A program made the translations under genes and the position numbers. The notes under the pieces were generated by a model. The model did not search any database. It was not told the origin of the DNA and saw nothing but the letters and a program-made list of their open reading frames with translations. A stretch of DNA of 64,000 bases from an uncultured Gammaproteobacteria bacterium (GTDB lineage Bacteria; Patescibacteriota; Microgenomatia; Levybacterales; UBA12049): the NCBI GenBank assembly GCA_964537895.1, contig CAZIDK010000002.1, forward strand, positions 82,684 through 146,683, in the 5' to 3' direction. Shown one piece after another: positions 15,157-40,582 of this stretch (the first letter of the stretch is position 1; each line of letters opens with the position of its first letter).

Positions 15157-15312
15157 ATAATTTGTTTTGGAAAAATCAAATTACGCTGAGCGCAGTCGAA
15201 GTGAGTGATTAATCCGTATGTATATTTTATACGAAAAATAGTAGAATAATGTCAATACCACATTTTAATACAAACTGAGTCAATAATTCTATTTATGATA
15301 GAATAACAAACT

Positions 15313-20531: not shown

Positions 20532-21146
20532 CTATCTTGGCAGTTTTAGAACATTACCGGAATGAATTACGTCTGGATTTACTAATTTATTTGCTTTTGC
20601 AATTTCCACCCATTTATATCCGTCCCCGTATGCTCTTACCGCAATTGTCCAAAGATAATCACCTTTTTGAACGGTATACGTTGATCCTGTTATGGAACTT
20701 GTTTTTTGAGCACTAATTACGGGATCCGCAGTATTTTTAACTATTATTGGTTTTACGTTAGGAATCGTAAGTTTTGTGCCAACGTATAAAAGTCCTGGAT
20801 TTGCTAATTTGTTTGCCTTGGATACATCAACCCAGTTGTAACCCGAACCGTATATTTTTTCTGATATATTCCAGAGATCGTCTCCTTGTTTAACCAGATA
20901 CGTTTTTGGTAATGATTTATTTGCTTGCTGTTCCTGACTCGTAGAAGTTGACTGCGTTGAACTCGTTTCATTAAAGTTTTTACCCTTTAAAAACGAAAAA
21001 ACAAGAACTGCTGCAACTACAACTACAACGATTCCTAAAAACAAACTCGTATAAGACTCTCCCCATTTTACCCTTGAAAAAACACTGCTACGAGCAACGG
21101 ATCTGGAGACAGCTTGTGTTTTGTTATTTTTTTTTGTTTTTGACAT
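20532..21146 (-). CDS. LysM-domain peptidoglycan-binding protein (N-terminal TM anchor, two LysM repeats)
   Basis: Two copies of the Y.V..GD.LW.I......G.G..W..I..AN.L.NP.....G..L.IP motif. Start trimmed to MSKTKKNNK at 21146 (GGAGGA SD upstream) because the longer ORF runs into tRNA-Asp. Confidence 0.65.
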   Translation of the reverse strand: MSKTKKNNKTQAVSRSVARSSVFSRVKWGESYTSLFLGIVVVVVAAVLVFSFLKGKNFNETSSTQSTSTSQEQQANKSLPKTYLVKQGDDLWNISEKIYGSGYNWVDVSKANKLANPGLLYVGTKLTIPNVKPIIVKNTADPVISAQKTSSITGSTYTVQKGDYLWTIAVRAYGDGYKWVEIAKANKLVNPDVIHSGNVLKLPR

Positions 21147-21189
21147 TTTGTCCTCCTTCCCGGACAGAGGTAAGGAATTTGTTAAGTAT

Positions 21190-21267
21190 TGGCGGGGCGA
21201 ACGGGACTCGAACCCGCGACCTCTTCCGTGACAGGGAAGCGCTCTAACCAAACTGAGCTACCACCCC
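21190..21267 (-). tRNA. tRNA-Asp (anticodon GTC), CCA encoded
   Basis: Reverse complement reads GGGGTGGTAGCTCAGTTTGGTTAGAGCGCTTCCCTGTCACGGAAGAGGTCGCGGGTTCGAGTCCCGTTCGCCCCGCCA. Anticodon loop CTGTCAC. Confidence 0.85.
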
Positions 21268-21340
21268 AAACTTAACGAATCTACGGGTATCCTAGCAAAT
21301 TGTTGAATTATAGTCAATGCTCTGGTATGATTTTTTTGCT

Positions 21341-23194
21341 ATGAGTAACCTGGAAATAGTAAAGCTTTTTAGAAATGTTGCAGCCGCTTACTCAATAAAA
21401 GATGAAAAAAAATTCCGGTTCCAAATTATTGCATATCAAAAAGCCGCGGACACCGTTTCTAATTTAACTTCGGAAATTATTGACTTCTATAAAGATAATA
21501 AACTGAACACTCTTCCCGGTATTGGAGTAACCATAAAATCTCATCTTGAAGAACTATTTAAAACAAATAAGGTAAAGCAGTTTGAATGGGCTTTGCACGG
21601 AATTCCCGAAGCTGTTTTTCCCTTATTAGATATTCCCTCATTTGGTCCCAAAAAAGTATATAGGCTGGTCAAAGAATTTCATCTTAAAAACTCTAAAACC
21701 GTGCTTGAAGATCTTGAAAAAATTGCAAAGCAGGGGAAAATTGCCAGATTAGCTAGTTTTGGAGATAAATCTCAAAGTGACATTCTTAGAGCAATTGCCG
21801 AGTTCAGACTTGGAAAAGGAAAAACAACCAGAATGACACTCCCATATGCAATGGAGGTAGCCGATAAAGTAGTTTCTTATTTAAAGCAGTCAAAAGACGT
21901 AGTTCGCGCAGAACCTTTGGGAAGTTTAAGACGCAGAATGCCCACAGTCGGCGACATAGATATAGCCGTAGCCACAGATAACCCAAAAGGCGTAATTGAA
22001 TATTTTACCTCATATCCGTATAAAGAACGCATTATTGAAAAAGGCGATACAACCTCCTCAATCTTAGTTTCCGGAGGAAAGCAGGTGGACCTTATGACAC
22101 AGCCCCCGGAGGCTTTTGGGTCGCTTTTACAGCACTTTACAGGCAGCAAAAACCATAACATTCACTTAAGGGAATTCGCTCTCAAGAAAGGATTATCTCT
22201 ATCGGAATATGGCATCAGACGGAAAACGCCCGCCCCGCTTCGCTTGGCGAGGCCGGAGGAAAATGCCCGCCCTGAGCGAGGCCCCGCACCGTCTGGTGCA
22301 GGGCGAGGCCGAAGGGGGAAATGGAAAATGGAAAATTTTTCTACAGAAGAACAATTTTATCATGCTGTCGGCCTAGAGTGGATTCCGCCGGAAATAAGAG
22401 AGAATACGGGCGAGATTGAGTTGGCTTCTCAAAAAAAACTCCCTAAGCTCGTTGAGTTACCGGATATCAAGGGGGACCTGCATATTCACACAAGCTTTCC
22501 CATAGAACCAAGCCATGATTTGGGACAAAACACTATTTTAGAAATGCTGGAAAAAGCAAGACTTTTAAAATATGCGTATTTAGGATTTTCCGAACACAAT
22601 CCCAGTATTTCTAAACATAATTCAAATCAAACTTACTCAATTTTGGCAAGAAGAAATGAAGAAATTGAACATATTTTATTGAGTAATAAAGATGTTCGTA
22701 TATTAAAATTACTCGAAATTGATATATTACCTCACGGAAATCTTGCTATAGATGATAAATCTCTGAATCTCTTAGATGGCGCTATAGTTTCTATTCATAG
22801 CACATTCAACATGAACAAGACCGACATGACGGAAAGAGTTTTAAAGGGTTTGTCGCATAAAAAGGCTAAGATACTCGCTCACCCAACGGGCAGAATGTTA
22901 AATGAAAGACAAGGTTACGAATTGGATTGGAGCAAAATATTTGAATTTTGCAAAAAAAATAATAAGGCCTTGGAAATTAACAGCTGGCCGGGCAGATTAG
23001 ATTTACCCGATATGGTAATTAGAATGGCTGTAGAAGCCAAGGTTAAAATGGTAATAAATACAGACAGTCACGCGGTTTCCCAAATGGAGCTTATGAAGTA
23101 CGGCATTGCAATGGCAAGGAGAGGCTGGGCAACAAAAGATGACATACTCAATACTTTATCGTATAATGAATTCTCCGAGTGGTTAAGAAAATAA
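21341..23194 (+). CDS. polX: DNA polymerase X family protein with C-terminal PHP phosphoesterase domain
   Basis: N-terminal pol-beta-like HhH and palm domains, then LHIHTSFP and later His/Asp PHP motifs. An alternative start lies at 21317. Contains a GC-rich insertion that stays in frame at 22224-22318. Confidence 0.75.
   Translation: MSNLEIVKLFRNVAAAYSIKDEKKFRFQIIAYQKAADTVSNLTSEIIDFYKDNKLNTLPGIGVTIKSHLEELFKTNKVKQFEWALHGIPEAVFPLLDIPSFGPKKVYRLVKEFHLKNSKTVLEDLEKIAKQGKIARLASFGDKSQSDILRAIAEFRLGKGKTTRMTLPYAMEVADKVVSYLKQSKDVVRAEPLGSLRRRMPTVGDIDIAVATDNPKGVIEYFTSYPYKERIIEKGDTTSSILVSGGKQVDLMTQPPEAFGSLLQHFTGSKNHNIHLREFALKKGLSLSEYGIRRKTPAPLRLARPEENARPERGPAPSGAGRGRRGKWKMENFSTEEQFYHAVGLEWIPPEIRENTGEIELASQKKLPKLVELPDIKGDLHIHTSFPIEPSHDLGQNTILEMLEKARLLKYAYLGFSEHNPSISKHNSNQTYSILARRNEEIEHILLSNKDVRILKLLEIDILPHGNLAIDDKSLNLLDGAIVSIHSTFNMNKTDMTERVLKGLSHKKAKILAHPTGRMLNERQGYELDWSKIFEFCKKNNKALEINSWPGRLDLPDMVIRMAVEAKVKMVINTDSHAVSQMELMKYGIAMARRGWATKDDILNTLSYNEFSEWLRK
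22224..22318. repeat. GC-rich (about 70% GC) insertion that stays in frame inside polX
   Basis: Three gcgaggcc units and an imperfect palindrome gccctg...cagggc. Left-flank ggaaaacg and an inside-edge ggaaaatg are direct repeats; three ggaaaat heptamers lie on the right. Adds about 25 aa (PAPLRLARPEENARPERGPAPSGAGRGRRG) in the linker between the EYG and TEE motifs. Confidence 0.5.
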
Positions 23195-24651: not shown

Positions 24652-24661
24652 TGCAAAGCAT

Positions 24662-24728
24662 CATCCTGAGCTTATCGCACATTCGACATAGCTCAGTGCG
24701 ATACTGAGTTTAGCGAATGTATCGAAGG
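24662..24728. repeat. Nested-hairpin repeat element, copy 1 (REP/MITE-like or small structured RNA)
   Basis: cctgagcttatcgcACATTCGacatagCTCAGTgcgatACTGAGtttagCGAATGTatcgaagg. A central perfect 6 bp hairpin sits inside a 7 bp outer stem. The reverse complement of 35461-35530 matches it at about 85% identity. Confidence 0.6.
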
Positions 24729-24737
24729 ATAAATAAT

Positions 24738-26018
24738 ATGATCAATGTCTTGATAATTCTAATCGGAAAGGTTCTCTCTTTTTTGAGTAAAAATTTAAAC
24801 TTGGGACATGGATCAACTTGGCCGGGACATATTGCCCTAAAGATAAATAAAAATTTTATAAAGCAAACAATTGGGTCAAAAACCAAAGTCGTTCTCGTAG
24901 CAGGAACAAATGGAAAAACTACCACTTCTGCTCTTACTTGTCACATTCTTAAACAGAATGGATTTTCGGTAGTTCAAAATAAAAGCGGTGCTAACCTACT
25001 TAACGGAGCGGCATCAGCTATTATTCAAGGAATTAGACCATTTTCATCAAAGACTGACCAAGACTATTTGATTTTGGAAGTTGATGAAAACAATCTGCCT
25101 CTTGTTATAAACCAAACAAATCCATCCTATATCATTGCATTAGACTTGTTCCGTGATCAACTCGATAGATATGGTGAGGTTTATTCAATTATTAATAAAT
25201 GGAAAAATGCTTTTGAAAAACTTAGTAACAATAGTACGTTAATTCTAAATGCCGATGATCCTCAGGTTTCTTACCTTGGTAAAAATCTGAAATCAAAGGT
25301 AATATACTTTGGACTTAATGAAAATGATCAAGAAATAATTGAACACGGAGCAGATTCTATTTTCTGTCCAAAATGTCAACATCTGCTGGATTATAAATCT
25401 ATTACTTTTTCCCATCTTGGGAATTGGTTTTGCTCAAACTGCAATGAAAAAAGACCATCTCTAAATATTTCAAAATTTGAGATTTATCCCATTCCCGGCA
25501 CTTATAATAAGTATAATACTCTAGCTGCAATTTTATTAACAACTGATCAAGGATTATCTGGCAAGCAAATAACTGAAGCATTTAAATCCTTCAAGCCTGC
25601 TTTCGGAAGACAGGAAGAGTTCGAGGTTAATGGTAAAAAAACAAAAATATTTTTATCAAAAAATCCTACTAGCTTTAATGAGTCGCTATCAACTATTTCA
25701 GACCTAAACGCTAAAAATTTATTAATCGTTCTTAACGACAGAGTTCCTGATGGATTGGATATATCATGGATATGGGATACAAACACATCTCTTTTAGGAA
25801 ATATTTCAAACATTACAGTTTCCGGTGATAGGGCCTACGACATGGCTTTGAGAATCAAGTATTCCGGGCTTAAAAATTTCCATATTTTTGAAGATCTTTC
25901 AGATGCGATAAAACAATCTTTAGAGAAAACAAAATTCGGCGAAACACTATTTATTCTTCCTACATATTCCGCAATGCTTGAAACAAGAAAAATATTAACC
26001 GGCAAAAAAATATTATGA
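24738..26018 (+). CDS. murT: MurT-like lipid II isoglutamine synthetase, ligase subunit (Mur ligase domain, Cys4 ribbon, DUF1727)
   Basis: VVLVAGTNGKTTTSAL P-loop, the Cys4 ribbon CPKCQ...CSNC, and the C-terminal DUF1727-like region. Start taken at MINVL (SD aagga 7 nt upstream); the longer ORF would overlap the repeat element. Confidence 0.6.
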   Translation: MINVLIILIGKVLSFLSKNLNLGHGSTWPGHIALKINKNFIKQTIGSKTKVVLVAGTNGKTTTSALTCHILKQNGFSVVQNKSGANLLNGAASAIIQGIRPFSSKTDQDYLILEVDENNLPLVINQTNPSYIIALDLFRDQLDRYGEVYSIINKWKNAFEKLSNNSTLILNADDPQVSYLGKNLKSKVIYFGLNENDQEIIEHGADSIFCPKCQHLLDYKSITFSHLGNWFCSNCNEKRPSLNISKFEIYPIPGTYNKYNTLAAILLTTDQGLSGKQITEAFKSFKPAFGRQEEFEVNGKKTKIFLSKNPTSFNESLSTISDLNAKNLLIVLNDRVPDGLDISWIWDTNTSLLGNISNITVSGDRAYDMALRIKYSGLKNFHIFEDLSDAIKQSLEKTKFGETLFILPTYSAMLETRKILTGKKIL

Positions 26019-26773
26019 AATACAAATTGACAATCGGTTGGCTATATCCCAAGCTCATGAACGTATATGGTGATCGTGGTAACGTAATTACACTGCAAAA
26101 AAGATGTGAATGGCGAGATATTGAAGTGGAAATAAAATATTTGGACGCTCCCCTTTTAGAAAAAGACCTCGAAAAATGTGATTTGCTTATGATGGGCGGA
26201 GCGCAGGATGAACAACAAGAGATTGTTTCAGATGATTTGAAGAAAAAAAACAAAGCACTTAACTCAGCAATCGAAAAAGGAATCCCCGGTCTTTATGTTT
26301 GCGGAGCGTATCAATTCCTTGGAAATTATTATAAAGATGCAAGTGGGACAGAAATTCCCGGCCTTGGAATTTTTGACCTTTATACTATAAATCCCGGTGA
26401 AAACTCAAAAAGATTGATTGGAAATATTGTTACGGAATCGTCAATGGTAAATGGTCAATCGTCAGTTTTAGTAGGTTTTGAAAATCACGGAGGAAGAACT
26501 TATCTTGGAAAGAACACTAAACCATTGGGAACTGTAGTTTCCGGCTTTGGCAATAACGGGAATGATAAAACAGAAGGAGCTATTTACAAAAATTCTATCG
26601 GAACATATTTCCACGGTCCCATTCTGCCAAAAAACCCAAGACTTGCTGACTTCCTTATTGAAAAAGCGCTTGAAATAAAATACAAAAAGAAAATTATCCT
26701 TGAAAAATTGGACGACTCATTTGCCGAAAACGCGAGAAAAGTGATTGCCAAAAGACTGTCCATTGCAATATAA
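26015..26773 (+). CDS. gatD: GatD-like glutamine amidotransferase partner of MurT (CobB/CobQ-type GATase)
   Basis: N-terminus LTIGWLYPKLMNVYGDRGN and the C..Y nucleophile context (LYVCGAYQ). Overlaps murT by 4 nt. Confidence 0.6.
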   Translation: MKYKLTIGWLYPKLMNVYGDRGNVITLQKRCEWRDIEVEIKYLDAPLLEKDLEKCDLLMMGGAQDEQQEIVSDDLKKKNKALNSAIEKGIPGLYVCGAYQFLGNYYKDASGTEIPGLGIFDLYTINPGENSKRLIGNIVTESSMVNGQSSVLVGFENHGGRTYLGKNTKPLGTVVSGFGNNGNDKTEGAIYKNSIGTYFHGPILPKNPRLADFLIEKALEIKYKKKIILEKLDDSFAENARKVIAKRLSIAI

Positions 26774-27063: not shown

Positions 27064-28505
27064 AACTAAACAGCTTAAACATTAAAGAGGCTAAGGAAGG
27101 GTTAAAAAAAAGGGATTTTTCTTCTTTTGAATTAACCAGAGCTTGTCTTGACCAAATAAAAAAGCTCGAAGGAAAATTGAATGCTTTTGTCACGATTACG
27201 GAAAACGAAGCTTTGGAACAAGCGAAAGAAGCCGACATTGAATTAGCTTCGCAAGGCGACGCCTTGGAGGCTAAGCCGCTTTTAGGAATTCCCATTGCTA
27301 TTAAAGATAATTTTTCAACGCTTGGCATTAAAACAACTGCGTCAAGTAAGGTGTTGGAAGATTATATCCCGCCATACGATGCAACAGTTGTTAAAAAATT
27401 AAAAGATGCGGGAATGGTTCTCTTAGGAAAAACCAATATGGACGCTTGGGCTCACGGCTCCTCTACGGAAACTTCTGATTTTGGAGTAACCAGAAATCCC
27501 TGGAACATAAACCATCTGCCCGGAGGCTCTTCGGGAGGGTCTGCGGCTGCAGTTGCAGCGGATGAAGTCATCGCCGCAATCGGTTCCGAGACAGCAGGCT
27601 CAATAAGACAACCTGCCAGCTGGTGCGGTGTTGTGGGACTAAAACCAACATATGGAAGAGTCAGCAGATACGGAGTTATAGCAATGGGTTCATCTTTAGA
27701 TTCTCCGGGCCCGATAACCAAAACCGTTGAGGACAGTGCTTTAATTTTGGAAGTTCTAGCAGGAAAGGACGAAAAAGACGCCACCACTTCCCCATTGCCG
27801 GTAGGGAATTACTCACAAAAGTTAAATAAAAATATTAAAGAATTGAGAGTGGGAATTTCCAGAGAGTACTTTATCGACGGGATTGATAAAGAAGTTAAAG
27901 AAACAGTTGAAAGGGCTGCTAAAGCATTAGAAAAATTTGGTGCAAAAGTTGAAAATATCAAACTATTCGATCCAAAATATGCGATTGATGTCTACACAAT
28001 AATTCAAAGATCCGAAGTCTCATCCAACTTGGCTAGATACGACGGAATTAGGTACGGAAACGGACGCGATTATTTTAAAGATGAGGCAAAGCGAAGAATT
28101 ATGTTTGGTACCTATGCCCTTTCATCCGGATATTACGACCAGTATTACAATAAAGCCCAGCAGGTAAGAACTGTAATCATCAATGATTTTAATAAAGCTT
28201 TTGAAAAAGTTGATGTAATAATTGCTCCCACAAGTCCTTCTCTGGCCTTACCGGTGGGGGCCACTAAAGATGCAACTATGTTTGGAGAAATTGCAGACGT
28301 ATTGGTAGAACCGTCTTCAATCGCAGGGCTAGCGGGTATAAATATCCCCGTAGGGTTTTCGAAATCGGGTCTTCCGATTGGAATGCAGATAATCGGACCG
28401 CAGTTTAGCGAAACGTTAGTTCTTTCTGTTGCGCATCAATATGAAGTAAATACTCAAAATGAGAATCGGAGAAAACTTAGGCCGAATTTACAATTTAAAA
28501 TTTGA
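27060..28505 (+). CDS. gatA: Asp/Glu-tRNA amidotransferase subunit A (amidase signature)
   Basis: Amidase signature motif GGSSGGSAAAVAA plus the Ser-cisSer-Lys catalytic context. Confidence 0.9.
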   Translation: MKLNSLNIKEAKEGLKKRDFSSFELTRACLDQIKKLEGKLNAFVTITENEALEQAKEADIELASQGDALEAKPLLGIPIAIKDNFSTLGIKTTASSKVLEDYIPPYDATVVKKLKDAGMVLLGKTNMDAWAHGSSTETSDFGVTRNPWNINHLPGGSSGGSAAAVAADEVIAAIGSETAGSIRQPASWCGVVGLKPTYGRVSRYGVIAMGSSLDSPGPITKTVEDSALILEVLAGKDEKDATTSPLPVGNYSQKLNKNIKELRVGISREYFIDGIDKEVKETVERAAKALEKFGAKVENIKLFDPKYAIDVYTIIQRSEVSSNLARYDGIRYGNGRDYFKDEAKRRIMFGTYALSSGYYDQYYNKAQQVRTVIINDFNKAFEKVDVIIAPTSPSLALPVGATKDATMFGEIADVLVEPSSIAGLAGINIPVGFSKSGLPIGMQIIGPQFSETLVLSVAHQYEVNTQNENRRKLRPNLQFKI

Positions 28506-28584
28506 AATTTATAATCAAACTCAAATGTTTTAAAATTGAAACATTGAAAATTCATTGAAAATTTAAAATTGGTAATTAAAAATT

Positions 28585-29961
28585 ATGAATAAATATACGC
28601 CAGTAATCGGCCTTGAAGTGCACGTTGAGTTAAAAACCACCAGCAAAATGTTTTGTGCTTGCTCTGCTGACTACTTTGGCAAAAAGCCTAACACCCATAC
28701 TTGCCCCGTTTGCCTTGGTCTTCCTGGCGCACTTCCCTATCCAAATAAAAAAGCAATTGAATGGTGCGTAATGATTGGACTTGCATTAAATTGTAAGATT
28801 CCCCTATTTTCCAAATTCGACAGAAAAAATTATTTTTATCCTGACCTTGCCAAAGGTTACCAAATTTCACAGTATGACAAACCATTTTGCCAAAATGGAT
28901 GGATAGAATTACAAAACGGCAAAAGAATTGGAATTACCAGGGTCCACATGGAAGAAGATACCGGTAAATTAATTCATGAAAAAGTTGACGGAGAAAATGT
29001 AAGCTTAATCGATTTTAACCGAAGCGGAGTCCCGCTTGTTGAAATAGTTACAGAACCGGATTTTGAAACGGCTGATGAAGTAAAAGAATACCTGCAAAAA
29101 CTTCAGCAAATTGTCAGATACCTTGGGGTTTCCAATGCCGACATGGAAAAAGGAGACATGAGATTGGAACCTAACATTTCACTTCGTGAAATCAGCAATC
29201 AGCAATCACCTGCCCGCAATGCTTCGCAAAGCGATGCAGGCGGGGCAATCAGCAATCAATTACCACCCTATAAAGTTGAAGTAAAAAACATAAATTCGTT
29301 TGCTTTTGTATCAAAAGCGATTGATTACGAAATAAAAAGACAAACAGAAATTTTGGAAAAAGGAAAAACTCCCGTACAGGAAACAAGGGGATTTGTTGAA
29401 AAAACCTCGTCGACAGTTACGCAAAGAGTTAAGGAGGAGGCATCAGACTACAGATATTTCCCAGAACCGGATATTCCTCCAATCCGTTGGCTTGAATCTC
29501 AAATTTTAAATCTTAAATCTCAAATGCCGGAGCTTCCGGATGCAAAACTTGATAGGTTTCAAAAACAATACTCACTCTCCCAATACGACAGCGGCCTATT
29601 AACAAGAATAGCTGAGCTTGCAAGTTTTTTTGAAGAAGCTGTTACTTTGGGCAAAGAACACAACCTTATTCCTAAACAAATCGCCAATTTTATTATCAAT
29701 CGAAAAATTAACCTTGATGAAATTCTGCCCGCAGAGCTTGTTAAAAAGGTTGTTTCTGCAAGTAAAACCGATGATATAAACGAAGAAGAGTTAGTAAAAA
29801 TCATTAAAAAAATATTGAAAGATAATCCGAAAATCGCAGAAGATTATAAAAAAGGCAAGGATTCTGTCATCCAGTTTGCCATTGGACAAGTTATGTATAT
29901 AATAAGAAAGAAAATAGATACGGATATTTTGACAAAACTAATAAAGGAGGAATTAAAATAA
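28585..29961 (+). CDS. gatB: Asp/Glu-tRNA amidotransferase subunit B
   Basis: N-terminus YTPVIGLEVHVEL; C-terminal YqeY-like tail. Contains a GC-rich insertion that stays in frame at 29190-29259. Confidence 0.85.
   Translation: MNKYTPVIGLEVHVELKTTSKMFCACSADYFGKKPNTHTCPVCLGLPGALPYPNKKAIEWCVMIGLALNCKIPLFSKFDRKNYFYPDLAKGYQISQYDKPFCQNGWIELQNGKRIGITRVHMEEDTGKLIHEKVDGENVSLIDFNRSGVPLVEIVTEPDFETADEVKEYLQKLQQIVRYLGVSNADMEKGDMRLEPNISLREISNQQSPARNASQSDAGGAISNQLPPYKVEVKNINSFAFVSKAIDYEIKRQTEILEKGKTPVQETRGFVEKTSSTVTQRVKEEASDYRYFPEPDIPPIRWLESQILNLKSQMPELPDAKLDRFQKQYSLSQYDSGLLTRIAELASFFEEAVTLGKEHNLIPKQIANFIINRKINLDEILPAELVKKVVSASKTDDINEEELVKIIKKILKDNPKIAEDYKKGKDSVIQFAIGQVMYIIRKKIDTDILTKLIKEELK
29190..29259. 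repeat. GC-rich palindromic insertion flanked by caatcag heptamer repeats, in frame inside gatB
   Basis: Left flank atcagcaatcagcaatca, core cctgcccgcaatgcttcgcaaagcgatgcaggcgggg, right flank caatcagcaatcaa. Adds about 25 aa (ISNQQSPARNASQSDAGGAISNQ) between conserved GatB blocks. Confidence 0.5.
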
Positions 29962-40244: not shown

Positions 40245-40280
40245 TTTGCCTAAACGCTCTAAATTTCATAGAATAAGGTA

Positions 40281-40322
40281 CTGCCGGAGTAACTCAGGGA
40301 ACGGAGCAAAGCGAGTTCGCCT
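40281..40322 (+). pseudogene. tRNA 5'-half-like fragment 1
   Basis: gccggagtaactcagggaacggagcaaagcgagttcgcctgc, a degenerate acceptor and D-arm. Shares its start (gccgnagtaactcag) and its end (ttcgcctgc) with fragment 2. Confidence 0.4.
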
Positions 40323-40440
40323 GCTTGATCGCGTCAGACGCGACTTGACAGACGCGACGAGCAAGTGTTTCGTCCCAGCATTTTCTTGCAAATTTTGATA
40401 AAATTTGCTTAGAAATGCGGGATCCCGTAAATCTAAGCTT

Positions 40441-40479
40441 GCCGAAGTAACTCAGCGGTAGAGTAGCTCTTTCGCCTGC
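40441..40479 (+). pseudogene. tRNA 5'-half-like fragment 2
   Basis: gccgaag-ta-actc-agcggta-gagt-a-gctct-ttcgcct aligns position by position with nt 1-37 of the adjacent tRNA-Thr and breaks off after the anticodon-loop position. Confidence 0.5.
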
Positions 40480-40487
40480 CCGCCATC

Positions 40488-40559
40488 GCCAACATAGCTC
40501 AGTGGCAGAGCAGCTGTTTCGTAAACAGCAGGTCGTTGGTTCGATCCCAACTGTTGGCT
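40488..40559 (+). tRNA. tRNA-Thr (anticodon CGT)
   Basis: GCCAACA/TGTTGGC acceptor, D-stem GCTC/GAGC, anticodon stem GCTGT/ACAGC with loop TTCGTAA, T-arm GTTGG-TTCGATC-CCAAC. Confidence 0.8.
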
Positions 40560-40582
40560 CAGGCAAGCAAGATTTACTGGGA

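What the first reader, a model, noticed from the sequence alone, without database searches (positions are those of the whole stretch)
22224..22318. GC-rich, repeat-structured insertion kept in frame inside polX
A roughly 95 bp segment of about 70% GC sits in a roughly 35% GC gene. It contains three gcgaggcc units and an imperfect palindrome (gccctg...cagggc with an inner cacc-gtct-ggtg). It is flanked by the direct repeats ggaaaacg and ggaaaatg on the left and three ggaaaat heptamers on the right. It adds about 25 Pro/Arg/Gly/Ala-rich residues in the linker just before the conserved TEEQ...GLEWIPPEIRE segment, without breaking the frame. This mirrors Rickettsia palindromic elements, which insert in frame into conserved genes of AT-rich reduced genomes.
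Basis: partly seen in the sequence, partly recalled or inferred. Interest (0 to 1): 0.6.

Follow-up and report, generated by a model that had tools for sequence, protein, structure and literature searches.

The report
Tiny GC-rich mobile elements inside polX
The GC-rich stretch in this DNA-repair polymerase gene is two tiny palindromic "jumping" DNA elements, one with a further piece nested inside it. They landed in frame in a 7-base repeat tract, and the same elements sit in frame inside many essential genes of ultra-small groundwater bacteria (Patescibacteria/CPR).

Summary
Window 22224-22318 is 73.7% GC in a 37.7% GC polX gene and is the strongest GC island in the 64 kb window.

It is not one insertion. 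A pre-existing heptanucleotide tract, (GGAAAAT)5, encodes part of a thumb-domain loop. That tract received a 30-nt element "A" (22228-22257) and then a 51-nt element "B" (22265-22315). B is a 24-nt element "S" with a 27-nt hairpin piece nested inside it. Together they add 81 nt, or 27 residues, in frame.

- An ortholog at 76% identity has the empty tract.
- A relative at 92% identity has A only.
- Three independent assemblies carry A plus B.
- The core of A occurs identically at 56 loci in 39 species-level genomes. Most copies lie in frame inside housekeeping genes such as rpoB, gyrA, secA, gatB and tRNA synthetase genes.
- S occurs in at least 120 metagenome contigs.
- A third family member, "C" (36 nt), sits in this window's gatB.

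All element lengths are multiples of three and none carries a stop codon in any frame. Insertion leaves no target duplication and is usually at TTG^A.

I found no prior description. How the elements move is inferred, not shown.

The parts
21341..23194 (+). polX (family X DNA polymerase with PHP domain), the host gene. An alternative upstream ATG lies at 21317.
   Evidence: ORF. Pfam HHH_8, DNA_pol_B_thumb and PHP domains. 7344 homologs, with the nearest labelled Patescibacteria or Levybacteria.
22221..22227 (+). Heptamer 1 (GGAAAAC) of the pre-existing heptanucleotide tract.
   Evidence: The corresponding unit is GGAAAAT in L001 and GAAAAAT in the empty-site ortholog L003.
22228..22257 (+). 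Element A: 30 nt, 80% GC, an imperfect palindrome, GCCCGCCCCGCTTCGCTTGGCGAGGCCGGA. It differs by one base from the family consensus CCCGCCCCGCTTCGCTTGGCGAGGCCGGGG and encodes PAPLRLARPE.
   Evidence: It is shared with the 92% relative L001/L002 at the same site and is absent from L003 and L062-L065. Its 22-nt core is identical at 56 loci in 39 genomes.
22258..22264 (+). Heptamer 2 (GGAAAAT), which separates elements A and B.
   Evidence: Locus L122 shows the same layout, with two S elements one heptamer apart.
22265..22315 (+). Element B: 51 nt, 78% GC. It is present only in the window lineage and encodes ARPERGPAPSGAGRGRR.
   Evidence: It is a 51-nt gap in L001 when L001 is aligned to the window.
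22265..22281 (+). Left part of the 24-nt element S (GCCCGCCCTGAGCGAGG).
   Evidence: Uninterrupted S, GCCCGCCCTGAGCGAGGCCGAAGG, occurs in L011 inside LeuRS within a GGAAATT tract and in at least 120 metagenome contigs.
22282..22308 (+). 27-nt piece nested inside S: CCCCGCACCGTCTGGTGCAGGGCGAGG. It contains the hairpin CCCCGCACC-GTCT-GGTGCAGGG. In an alternative parse, the direct repeat GCGAGGCC flanks a 19-nt insert.
   Evidence: The exact piece was not found elsewhere in 1.3 Mb of fetched DNA. A similar stem, CCCCGCACC...GGTRCGGGG, encloses element A in L010 and L031; L019 and L029 show a similar left arm.
22309..22315 (+). Right part of element S (CCGAAGG).
22316..22336 (+). Heptamers 3-5 (GGGAAAT GGAAAAT GGAAAAT), encoding GKWKMEN.
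   Evidence: A perfect (ATGGAAA)x4 tract without any GC element occurs at the same place in the 68% ortholog L065.
29209..29244 (+). Related element C in gatB (ORF 28585..29961): 36 nt, CCTGCCCGCAATGCTTCGCAAAGCGATGCAGGCGGG. It sits inside an ATCAGCA heptamer tract (about 29188-29261) and encodes PARNASQSDAGG.
   Evidence: L001, L062, L063 and L064 have the empty site. L058 has element A at the same gatB site. Near-identical C copies occur in L061 rpoB and in L185. As single-stranded DNA it folds with z = -3.4.
24652..24739 (+). Intergenic 88-nt insertion between htpX and murT of the wider CCTGAGC...CGAAGG hairpin type. It is absent from L001.
15162..15208 (+). Intergenic 47-nt insertion containing CTGAGCGCAGTCGAAG, of the same wider type. 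It is absent from L001.

Best explanation
The segment records successive in-frame insertions of very small, non-autonomous, GC-rich palindromic mobile elements into a heptanucleotide simple-sequence tract in the thumb loop of polX.

**Order of events (shown by comparison).**
1. The ancestor carried about five GGAAAAT-like units encoding RKMENGKWKMEN.
2. Element A (30 nt) inserted after the first unit, before the window lineage split from its 92% relative.
3. Element S (24 nt), carrying a nested 27-nt hairpin piece, inserted after the second unit, in the window lineage only. Whether the nested piece arrived with S or later is unknown.

**Properties of the family (shown).**
- Members share ends: 5' CCCGCCC and 3' GCGAGGCCG(R)GGG.
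- Lengths are multiples of three: 24, 27, 30, 36.
- No member carries a stop codon in any of the six frames.
- They insert without target duplication, usually at (T/A)TG^A.
- They sit inside 7-nt tandem tracts or at the apex of other GC hairpins.

**Consequence for the gene.** Any gene they enter stays in frame. In polX the insert is read through as a 27-residue Pro/Arg/Gly/Ala-rich, probably disordered surface loop (structure prediction, not experiment).

**Inferred, not shown.**
- The elements are selfish or near-neutral passengers tolerated in loops.
- They integrate into transiently single-stranded DNA, such as slipped heptamer tracts or hairpin loops, through an enzyme supplied in trans. 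A single-strand (HUH/Y1-type) transposase is one candidate.
- They spread between lineages horizontally.
For: **Lineage-specific and stepwise.**
- Orthologs of 589-590 aa lack the insert.
- L003 (76% identity) has the empty tract. L001/L002 (92%) have A only. The window and two independent Logan assemblies (L004, L005) have A plus B.
- L065 (68%) has a perfect 4-unit tract and no element.

**Dispersed family.**
- L001 carries a second A copy in the opposite orientation at the 5' end of gatD. The window lacks it.
- The exact 22-nt core of A occurs at 56 loci in 39 species-representative genomes, mostly Patescibacteria.
- C occurs in window gatB, in L061 rpoB and in L185.

**Intragenic and in frame.**
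- Most A copies are spanned by long ORFs, in all three phases and both orientations.
- Hosts include IleRS, LeuRS, LysRS, GyrA, LepA, DnaG, RpoB, UvrC, SecA, GatB, PurD and TrmD.
- Comparisons with empty sites give +10 aa (UvrC) and +17 aa = 30+21 nt (a second PolX, L056), among others.

**No target duplication.** The heptamer phase runs unbroken across the insert at 23 sites, and polX gains exactly 30 and then 51 nt.

**Site preference.** Position -1 is G in 55 of 59 copies, -2 is T or A in 57 of 59, and +1 is A in 47 of 59.

**Young or constrained copies.** A copies show 0-1 mismatch or are absent. No copy with 2-5 mismatches was found in any of the three locus sets scanned for A (about 0.87 Mb).

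**Recent activity.** About 16 kb aligned with L001 shows four window-specific and at least three L001-specific small GC-rich insertions.

**Protein effect.** In the AlphaFold2 model, residues 298-325 have pLDDT below 50 and lie between strands 291-295 and 328-331, while the neighbouring domains are confident.
Against: - No enzyme that could move the elements was identified, so mobility rests on comparative evidence only.
- Exact copies are few per genome: four in the relative's genome assembly.
- The nested 27-nt piece was not found anywhere else, so it could have arisen locally.
- Hairpin stability of A and B is not better than that of shuffled GC-rich sequence (z = -1.3 and -0.5).
- The strong association with 7-nt tracts has no demonstrated cause. 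The tracts could be targets, or could be promoted by the elements.
- Translation of the insert has not been observed.
- Several of the source genomes are metagenome bins whose taxonomic labels look unreliable, so the spread outside Patescibacteria is uncertain.
Confidence: 0.8

Rival explanations
1. The element reached polX by homologous recombination, not by transposition. After DNA uptake, a polX fragment from a relative that already carried the element replaced the local copy. Under this view the family spreads by gene conversion using flanking homology.
For: The same gatB loop carries A in L058 and C in the window, while the window's closer relative L001 is empty there. The same heptamer units (for example GGAAATT) flank S in several contigs. 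From general knowledge, Patescibacteria are thought to be naturally competent.
Against: A and S occur in dozens of unrelated genes, in all phases and both orientations. That requires movement between non-homologous sites. The two gatB occupants are different elements in opposite orientation. B is absent from every other polX retrieved.
Confidence: 0.1
2. The insert is kept because it is useful. It could act as a basic, flexible loop that alters DNA binding by the PolX thumb, or as an mRNA or DNA hairpin that regulates expression.
For: The loop is Arg-rich and lies on the thumb, a DNA-contacting subdomain. The frame has been maintained. A has persisted since the split from the 92% relative.
Against: The same DNA is read in all six frames in unrelated proteins. 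Conservation is therefore at the nucleotide level, not the peptide level. Presence or absence varies between close relatives. The window's A copy and its left flank differ from the L001 copy at two positions, ATG>ACG and GGG>GAG. Folding is not better than for shuffled sequence.
Confidence: 0.08
3. The segment arose locally by replication slippage or duplication in the heptamer tract, with B a diverged duplicate of A plus one heptamer. No mobile element is involved.
For: The site is a slippage-prone 7-nt tract. A and B share their ends and the GCGAGGCC unit.
Against: Nearly identical A (one mismatch to the consensus) and identical S exist in many other genes and genomes. B equals S plus a nested piece, not a copy of A. 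The GC-rich sequence has no local source in a 36% GC gene.
Confidence: 0.03
4. The GC-rich stretch is skipped by the ribosome through programmed translational bypassing, as in phage T4 gene 60 or the yeast mitochondrial byp elements. The flanking repeated heptamers would supply matching take-off and landing codons.
For: The element is a GC-rich hairpin-forming insert flanked by identical short repeats.
Against: All element lengths and all net insert lengths are multiples of three (24, 27, 30, 36, 51, 54, 81 nt). No stop codon follows a possible take-off site, and the frame is open through every copy. None of this would be required if the insert were skipped.
Confidence: 0.02
5. The segment is an ancestral linker of PolX, or an assembly or contamination artefact.
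For: None beyond the unusual composition.
Against: Empty sites occur in the nearest orthologs. Identical sequence appears in three independent assemblies. An intermediate state occurs in a separate organism assembled twice.
Confidence: 0.01

Closest known systems
Rickettsia palindromic elements (RPEs)
   Same: Both are dispersed palindromic repeats in AT-rich, reduced genomes that are frequently inserted in frame into unrelated housekeeping genes and read through as extra peptide segments. The RPE description is taken from the review PMC10969869.
   Different: RPEs are about 150 bp, each family encodes one conserved peptide, and they are confined to Rickettsia. The elements here are 24-36 nt, are read in all six frames, occur across many Patescibacteria lineages with identical sequence, and sit in 7-nt tracts or hairpin loops. 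No sequence relationship to RPEs was tested or is expected.
REP elements and REPINs (mobilised by RAYT tyrosine transposases)
   Same: Both are 20-40 nt GC-rich imperfect palindromes that are non-autonomous and dispersed. REP elements are thought to move as single-stranded DNA without target duplication (PMC3116915 and PMC3733652, plus general knowledge).
   Different: REPs are extragenic, number hundreds per genome, carry a GTAG or CGTC head and usually act as inverted doublets near a RAYT gene. The elements here are mostly intragenic, have few copies per genome, lack GTAG or CGTC at their ends, and no RAYT gene was examined.
GC clusters of yeast mitochondrial genomes and related fungal mitochondrial hairpin elements
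   Same: From my own knowledge, not checked here: these are 30-60 nt GC-rich palindromic mobile clusters in a very AT-rich genome. They are sometimes nested and are occasionally in frame inside a protein gene (var1).
   Different: They are organellar, mostly intergenic, and unrelated in sequence. No association with 7-nt tracts is known to me.
Small dispersed repeats (SDR) of Nostoc and other cyanobacteria (Elhai et al. 2008, Genome Res 18:1484)
   Same: From memory of that paper: these are very small (21-27 nt) mobile repeats, some palindromic, with nested insertions and no obvious transposase, in genomes that are also rich in heptanucleotide tandem repeats. The paper is cited as reference 43 in PMC3116915 but could not be read.
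   Different: The host phylum and sequences differ. I could not verify whether SDRs show in-frame intragenic insertion or identity across phyla.
Heptanucleotide simple-sequence repeats of prokaryotes
   Same: The target tract in polX and the many other 7-nt arrays in these genomes match the known excess of 7-nt units among long simple-sequence repeats. That excess has been attributed to polymerase slippage (summarised in PMC4679880). Tracts of (TTTTGAA)3-4 are described in Nostoc.
   Different: The published tracts are mainly intergenic. Their use as landing sites for GC-rich hairpin elements inside genes is not described in the sources I could read.

Membership tests
Rickettsia palindromic elements | Element length of about 100-150 bp belonging to one of the RPE sequence families | tested here: not met
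   A is 30 nt, S is 24 nt and B is 51 nt. RPE size is taken from PMC10969869. No sequence comparison with RPE consensus sequences was run.
Rickettsia palindromic elements | Dispersed copies inserted in frame into unrelated protein-coding genes | tested here: met
Rickettsia palindromic elements | Host restricted to Rickettsia | tested here: not met
   The nearest PolX homologs and the element-bearing genomes are Patescibacteria metagenome bins.
REP / REPIN | Short (20-40 nt) GC-rich imperfect palindrome | tested here: met
   The stability of A is not above that of shuffled sequence; that of C is (z = -3.4).
REP / REPIN | Extragenic location and hundreds of copies per genome | tested here: not met
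   Most copies lie inside ORFs. One relative's genome assembly has four exact A copies.
REP / REPIN | Conserved GTAG or CGTC tetranucleotide at one end | tested here: not met
   The ends are CCCGCCC and CCGGGG, and the flanks are (T/A)TG and A.
REP / REPIN | Association with a RAYT (Y1 transposase) gene in the same genome | not tested
   Only 8-20 kb around each copy was available, and no whole genomes were available.
Classical MITE | Terminal inverted repeats | tested here: inconclusive
   The ends CCCGCC and GGCGGG/CCGGGG are roughly inverted, but they are also simply the stem of the hairpin.
Classical MITE | Target-site duplication of fixed length | tested here: not met
   The heptamer phase is continuous across the insert. 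polX gains exactly 30 and 51 nt, and UvrC gains 30 nt.
Heptanucleotide simple-sequence repeat (the target tract) | Tandem 7-nt units, also present without the GC element | tested here: met
   In 481 kb there are 76 period-7 arrays away from A, against at most 15 for any other period.
Programmed translational bypass elements (T4 gene 60, mitochondrial byp) | Insert length free of the multiple-of-three rule, with a stop codon or non-coding content after the take-off codon | tested here: not met
   All lengths are multiples of three and all copies are open in the host frame.
Any described RNA family (Rfam 15) | Match to a covariance model at the curated threshold | tested here: not met

The most novel reading that the evidence does not exclude
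A, S and C would belong to a so far undescribed superfamily of ultra-small (24-36 nt, always a multiple of three) GC-rich palindromic mobile elements. These elements home into heptanucleotide tracts and hairpin loops, colonise essential genes of Patescibacteria in frame, and move between phylum-level lineages (identical 30-mers in 39 species-level genomes). That would imply an unidentified trans-acting integration machinery acting on single-stranded DNA, and a hidden channel of DNA exchange among groundwater bacteria.
Probability: 0.45. Interest if true: 0.8.

Novelty: new variant of a known kind. Interest (0 to 1): 0.62.

Why it matters
If the family is what it appears to be, several things follow.

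- Protein-coding genes of the most reduced free-living bacteria are being remodelled continuously by 24-36 nt selfish elements. These elements cannot break a reading frame, because their lengths are multiples of three and they carry no stop codon in any of the six frames.
- This would explain many unexplained Pro/Arg/Gly/Ala-rich "insertions" in Patescibacteria proteins.
- It provides sequence markers of very recent DNA exchange between distant lineages living in the same aquifers.
- It points to an integration mechanism that recognises slipped 7-nt repeats or hairpin loops.
- On the practical side, these segments can mislead alignments, domain boundaries and structure prediction for proteins from metagenome-assembled genomes.

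Tried and rejected
**Database and collection searches that found nothing relevant**
- Rfam at curated thresholds on the whole window found only four tRNAs.
- Rfam on 14 element-bearing loci found no family overlapping an element.
- Permissive Rfam on 22100-22450 gave one chance hit at E = 1.8.
- A scan of the viral contig collection for the core of A gave 0 hits.
- blastn of A against plasmid and phage records gave only chance matches in GC-rich genomes, with E of 0.07 or higher.

**Literature**
- Searches for Patescibacteria/CPR combined with palindromic, in-frame, hairpin or heptanucleotide terms, and for the element's own sequence, found no description.
- The Elhai 2008 paper on small dispersed repeats could not be read.

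**Tests and ideas that led nowhere**
- I searched the window for more copies by GC islands alone. At a 63% threshold this produced only ordinary coding GC peaks and missed the gatB element.
- I considered the heptamers as target-site duplications, with the frame restored by slippage. I rejected this for polX because orthologs without the element already have the same number of units.
- I considered TGCCCGCC as a diagnostic motif. The three other window copies are unrelated.
- Hairpin stability as evidence: A and B do not fold better than shuffled sequence.
- The nested 27-nt piece was not found in 1.3 Mb of fetched DNA.
Full report

Yes. Window 22224-22318 is 73.7% GC over 95 nt. The mean for 95-nt windows is 35.8% with sd 7.1%, and the next-highest such window is 61.1%. 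polX without the insert is 37.7% GC. No other place in the 64 kb reaches 80% GC over 30 nt. GCGAGGCC occurs three times in the window, all inside the segment, against 0.61 expected. The palindrome CGCCCTG...CAGGGCG with inner CACC-GTCT-GGTG is there. The frame of the 617/625-codon ORF 21341(21317)..23194 is open throughout.

**2. What gene, and is the segment lineage-specific?**

The ORF has the HHH_8, DNA_pol_B_thumb and PHP domains of a bacterial family X polymerase. It has 7344 homologs at E<=1e-20. The closest are labelled Patescibacteria or Levybacteria. Nearly all close homologs are 589-590 aa. Only two are longer at this point:
- P0001, 617 aa and identical to the window.
- P0002, 600 aa and 92% identical.

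Other long homologs differ only by N-terminal extensions. The segment is an insertion.

**3. Anatomy, from filled and empty sites**

I fetched DNA for the relatives. The states at this site are:

| Source | Identity to window PolX | State at the site |
|---|---|---|
| L003 | 76% | Five heptamer-like units: GAAAAAT GAAAAGG GGAAAGT GGAAAAT GGAAAAT |
| L065 | 68% | Perfect (ATGGAAA)x4 tract, no GC-rich DNA |
| L062-L064 | 80-82% | Non-repetitive loop of the same length |
| L001/L002 (two assemblies) | 92% | GGAAAAT + a 30-nt insert + four GGAAAAT |
| Window, L004, L005 (two independent Logan assemblies) | 100% | GGAAAAC + A (30 nt, 22228-22257) + GGAAAAT + B (51 nt, 22265-22315) + GGGAAAT GGAAAAT GGAAAAT |

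The 7-nt phase runs unbroken across both inserts. The net gains are exactly 30 and 51 nt. The heptamers are therefore a pre-existing simple-sequence tract, not target duplications. A entered before the split from the 92% relative, and B entered after it.

**4. Element A is a dispersed, highly conserved element**

The 92% relative has a second A copy. It has one mismatch, lies in the opposite orientation at the 5' end of gatD, and is absent from the window.

A scan of one genome per species for the exact 22-nt core GCCCCGCTTCGCTTGGCGAGGC returned 56 loci in 39 genomes. Labels include Levy-, Curtiss-, Gottesman-, Portnoy-, Falkow-, Kuenen- and Doudnabacteria, Parcubacteria and Microgenomates. 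A few bins are labelled Elusimicrobia, Ignavibacteriaceae, Brocadiaceae or Gammaproteobacteria. At least the last label is doubtful, because the relative's own assembly carries it.

The eight positions outside the search pattern are almost invariant: CCC in 55 of 59 copies and CGGGG in 49 of 59. That defines a 30-nt unit, CCCGCCCCGCTTCGCTTGGCGAGGCCGGGG.

Most copies lie inside long ORFs, in all three phases and both orientations, mostly antisense to the gene. The peptides depend on frame and orientation:
- PRPRQAKRGGQ, SPASPSEAGRA and PGLAKRSGAG when the element is antisense to the gene.
- PAPLRLARPG, RPASLGEAGE and PPRFAWRGRG when it is in the sense orientation.

Hosts confirmed by Pfam include IleRS, LeuRS, class I LysRS, GyrA, LepA, DnaG, RpoB, UvrC (twice), SecA, transketolase, PurD, TrmD and others. 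A second, distant PolX carries A in its PHP domain.

Where an ortholog with an empty site was available, the gain was +10 aa (UvrC, 30 nt), +17 aa (PolX L056, 30+21 nt), and +16 to +19 aa elsewhere.

Fuzzy matching found A copies with 0-1 mismatch only. There was no tail of decayed copies.

**5. Element B is a composite**

Its outer 24 nt, GCCCGCCCTGAGCGAGG^CCGAAGG ("S"), occur uninterrupted in LeuRS of L011, inside a GGAAATT tract. Its contexts there are:
- 7-nt tracts (12 of 62 distinct AT-rich contexts, 7 of them inside ORFs).
- The apex of other hairpins, for example gtcatcctgaactt|S|gtttcaggatc.
- The loop of a GC-rich hairpin in contigs of 60-70% GC.

S shares its ends with A: CCCGCCC... 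and ...GCGAGGCCG(AA)GGG.

In the window, S is interrupted after GCGAGG by 27 nt, CCCCGCACCGTCTGGTGCAGGGCGAGG. This piece contains a 9-bp hairpin, and GCGAGGCC appears on both sides of it. The exact nested piece was not found elsewhere. A similar stem does enclose A in L010 and L031; L019 and L029 show a similar left arm.

In L122, two S copies are separated by exactly one heptamer. That is the same layout as A-heptamer-B here.

**6. More of the same in this window**

gatB (28585..29961) carries a 36-nt relative "C" at 29209-29244, inside an ATCAGCA tract. It adds 18 residues compared with L001, L062 and L064, and 17 compared with L063. L058 has A at the same gatB loop. Near-identical C copies sit in L061 rpoB and in L185.

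Alignment of about 16 kb with L001 gives these differences:
- Window-specific small insertions at 15162-15208, 22265-22315, 24652-24739 and 29181-29234, plus 61 nt of heptamer tracts at 28505-28565.
- L001-specific insertions in gatD and next to two tRNA genes.

**7. The heptamer tracts**

About 35 of the 59 A copies sit in period-7 tracts of about 28-40 nt. In 481 kb of these genomes, TRF finds 76 period-7 arrays of at least 3 copies away from A and 20 next to A. No other period gives more than 15. The window has several tracts without any element, at 26436, 28485-28584 and 29491.

An excess of 7-nt units among long simple repeats, attributed to polymerase slippage, is known in other prokaryotes (summary in PMC4679880; Nostoc tracts). 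The tracts therefore appear to be a separate phenomenon that these elements use as landing sites.

The insertion point is (T/A)TG^A. TTGA is disfavoured on coding strands because it contains a stop codon and the coding strand is A-rich. This may explain why most copies are antisense to their host gene. That last point is inference.

**8. Effect on the protein**

The 27 residues lie within the Pfam thumb match. In the AlphaFold2 model (mean pLDDT 78), residues 298-325 fall below 50 and lie between strands 291-295 and 328-331. That places the insert at the tip of a beta-hairpin, while the surrounding thumb and PHP domains are confident. This is a prediction, not a measurement. It fits a tolerated surface loop.

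**9. How it most likely works**

Shown:
- The insertion is stepwise and lineage-specific.
- Identical copies are dispersed in unrelated genes.
- No target duplication is made.
- All lengths are multiples of three (24, 27, 30, 36).
- All six frames are open.
- Insertion favours TTG^A inside 7-nt tracts or hairpin apices.
- Presence or absence varies between close relatives.

Inferred:
- The elements are non-autonomous and selfish.
- They integrate into DNA that is transiently single-stranded, such as slipped repeats or hairpin loops, through an enzyme supplied in trans.
- The near-identity across deep lineages reflects recent horizontal spread, recognition constraint, or both.
- They are translated.

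**10. Comparison with what is known**

- The behaviour matches Rickettsia palindromic elements, but size, host and coding pattern do not.
- REP/REPIN elements match in size and palindromy. They do not match in location, copy number or end motif.
- Yeast mitochondrial GC clusters and cyanobacterial small dispersed repeats are, from memory, the nearest in scale. The key paper could not be read.
- No Rfam family, viral contig, plasmid or phage record, or searchable paper contains the element.

**11. Caveats**

- Copy numbers come from exact-match scans and are lower bounds for diverged copies.
- Taxon labels of several bins are unreliable.
- No whole genome was available.
- The mobilising enzyme and the cause of the link with heptamer tracts remain unknown.

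Noticed in passing
window 29188-29261 (gatB, ORF 28585..29961): A second in-frame GC-rich element (36 nt, type C) sits inside an ATCAGCA heptamer tract. It adds 18 residues compared with the 92% relative. A distant gatB (L058) carries element A at the same loop.
   Followed up: yes
window 28485-28584; also 26436-26464, 29491-29525, 21114-21141: These are period-7 tandem tracts without any GC element. Some lie inside genes (the gatA C-terminus, gatD, gatB). 61 nt of the tract in the gatA-gatB spacer is absent from the 92% relative. Across 481 kb of related genomes, period-7 arrays outnumber every other period about five-fold.
   Followed up: partly
window 24652-24739 and 15162-15208: Two intergenic insertions absent from the 92% relative, both of a CCTGAGC...CGAAGG hairpin type. 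The first looks nested. They seem to belong to the same wider superfamily as element S.
   Followed up: partly
window 40277-40487: A GC-rich stretch (about 61% GC) is followed by a sequence resembling the 5' half of a tRNA (GCCGAAGTAACTCAGCGGTAGAGTAG...), immediately upstream of tRNA-Thr (40488-40560). No Rfam family matched. It could be a tRNA remnant or an undescribed small RNA.
   Followed up: partly
window 20532-21251 (- strand): The mechanical ORF for the LysM protein starts inside tRNA-Asp (21190-21267). Its first residues (MVRALPCHGRGRGFESRSP) are a translation of the tRNA. The real start is probably the downstream MSKTKKNNK.
   Followed up: no
L001 11869-12537 versus window about 27060: The 92% relative has a 669-nt histidine phosphatase gene between gatC and gatA that the window lacks.
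   Followed up: no
L061 2645-5953 (rpoB); L011 673-3384 (leuS): Single essential genes carry several of these features at once. rpoB has both A and C. leuS has A, S and at least four heptamer tracts, each seen as a gap against the ortholog in L057.
   Followed up: partly
L002/L023 (CAYIOB01) and other TPA assemblies among L006-L061: Bins labelled 'uncultured Gammaproteobacteria' or 'Saccharibacteria' carry gene orders and PolX proteins typical of Levybacteria-like Patescibacteria. The record labels appear unreliable.
   Followed up: no
L024 581, 6364, 7052: Three A copies lie within 8 kb of a contig labelled Ignavibacteriaceae. Each is embedded in the same longer repeat of about 100 nt (gatccgccAG|A|AGGacggacagg...), suggesting a larger composite repeat with A at its core.
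   Followed up: no
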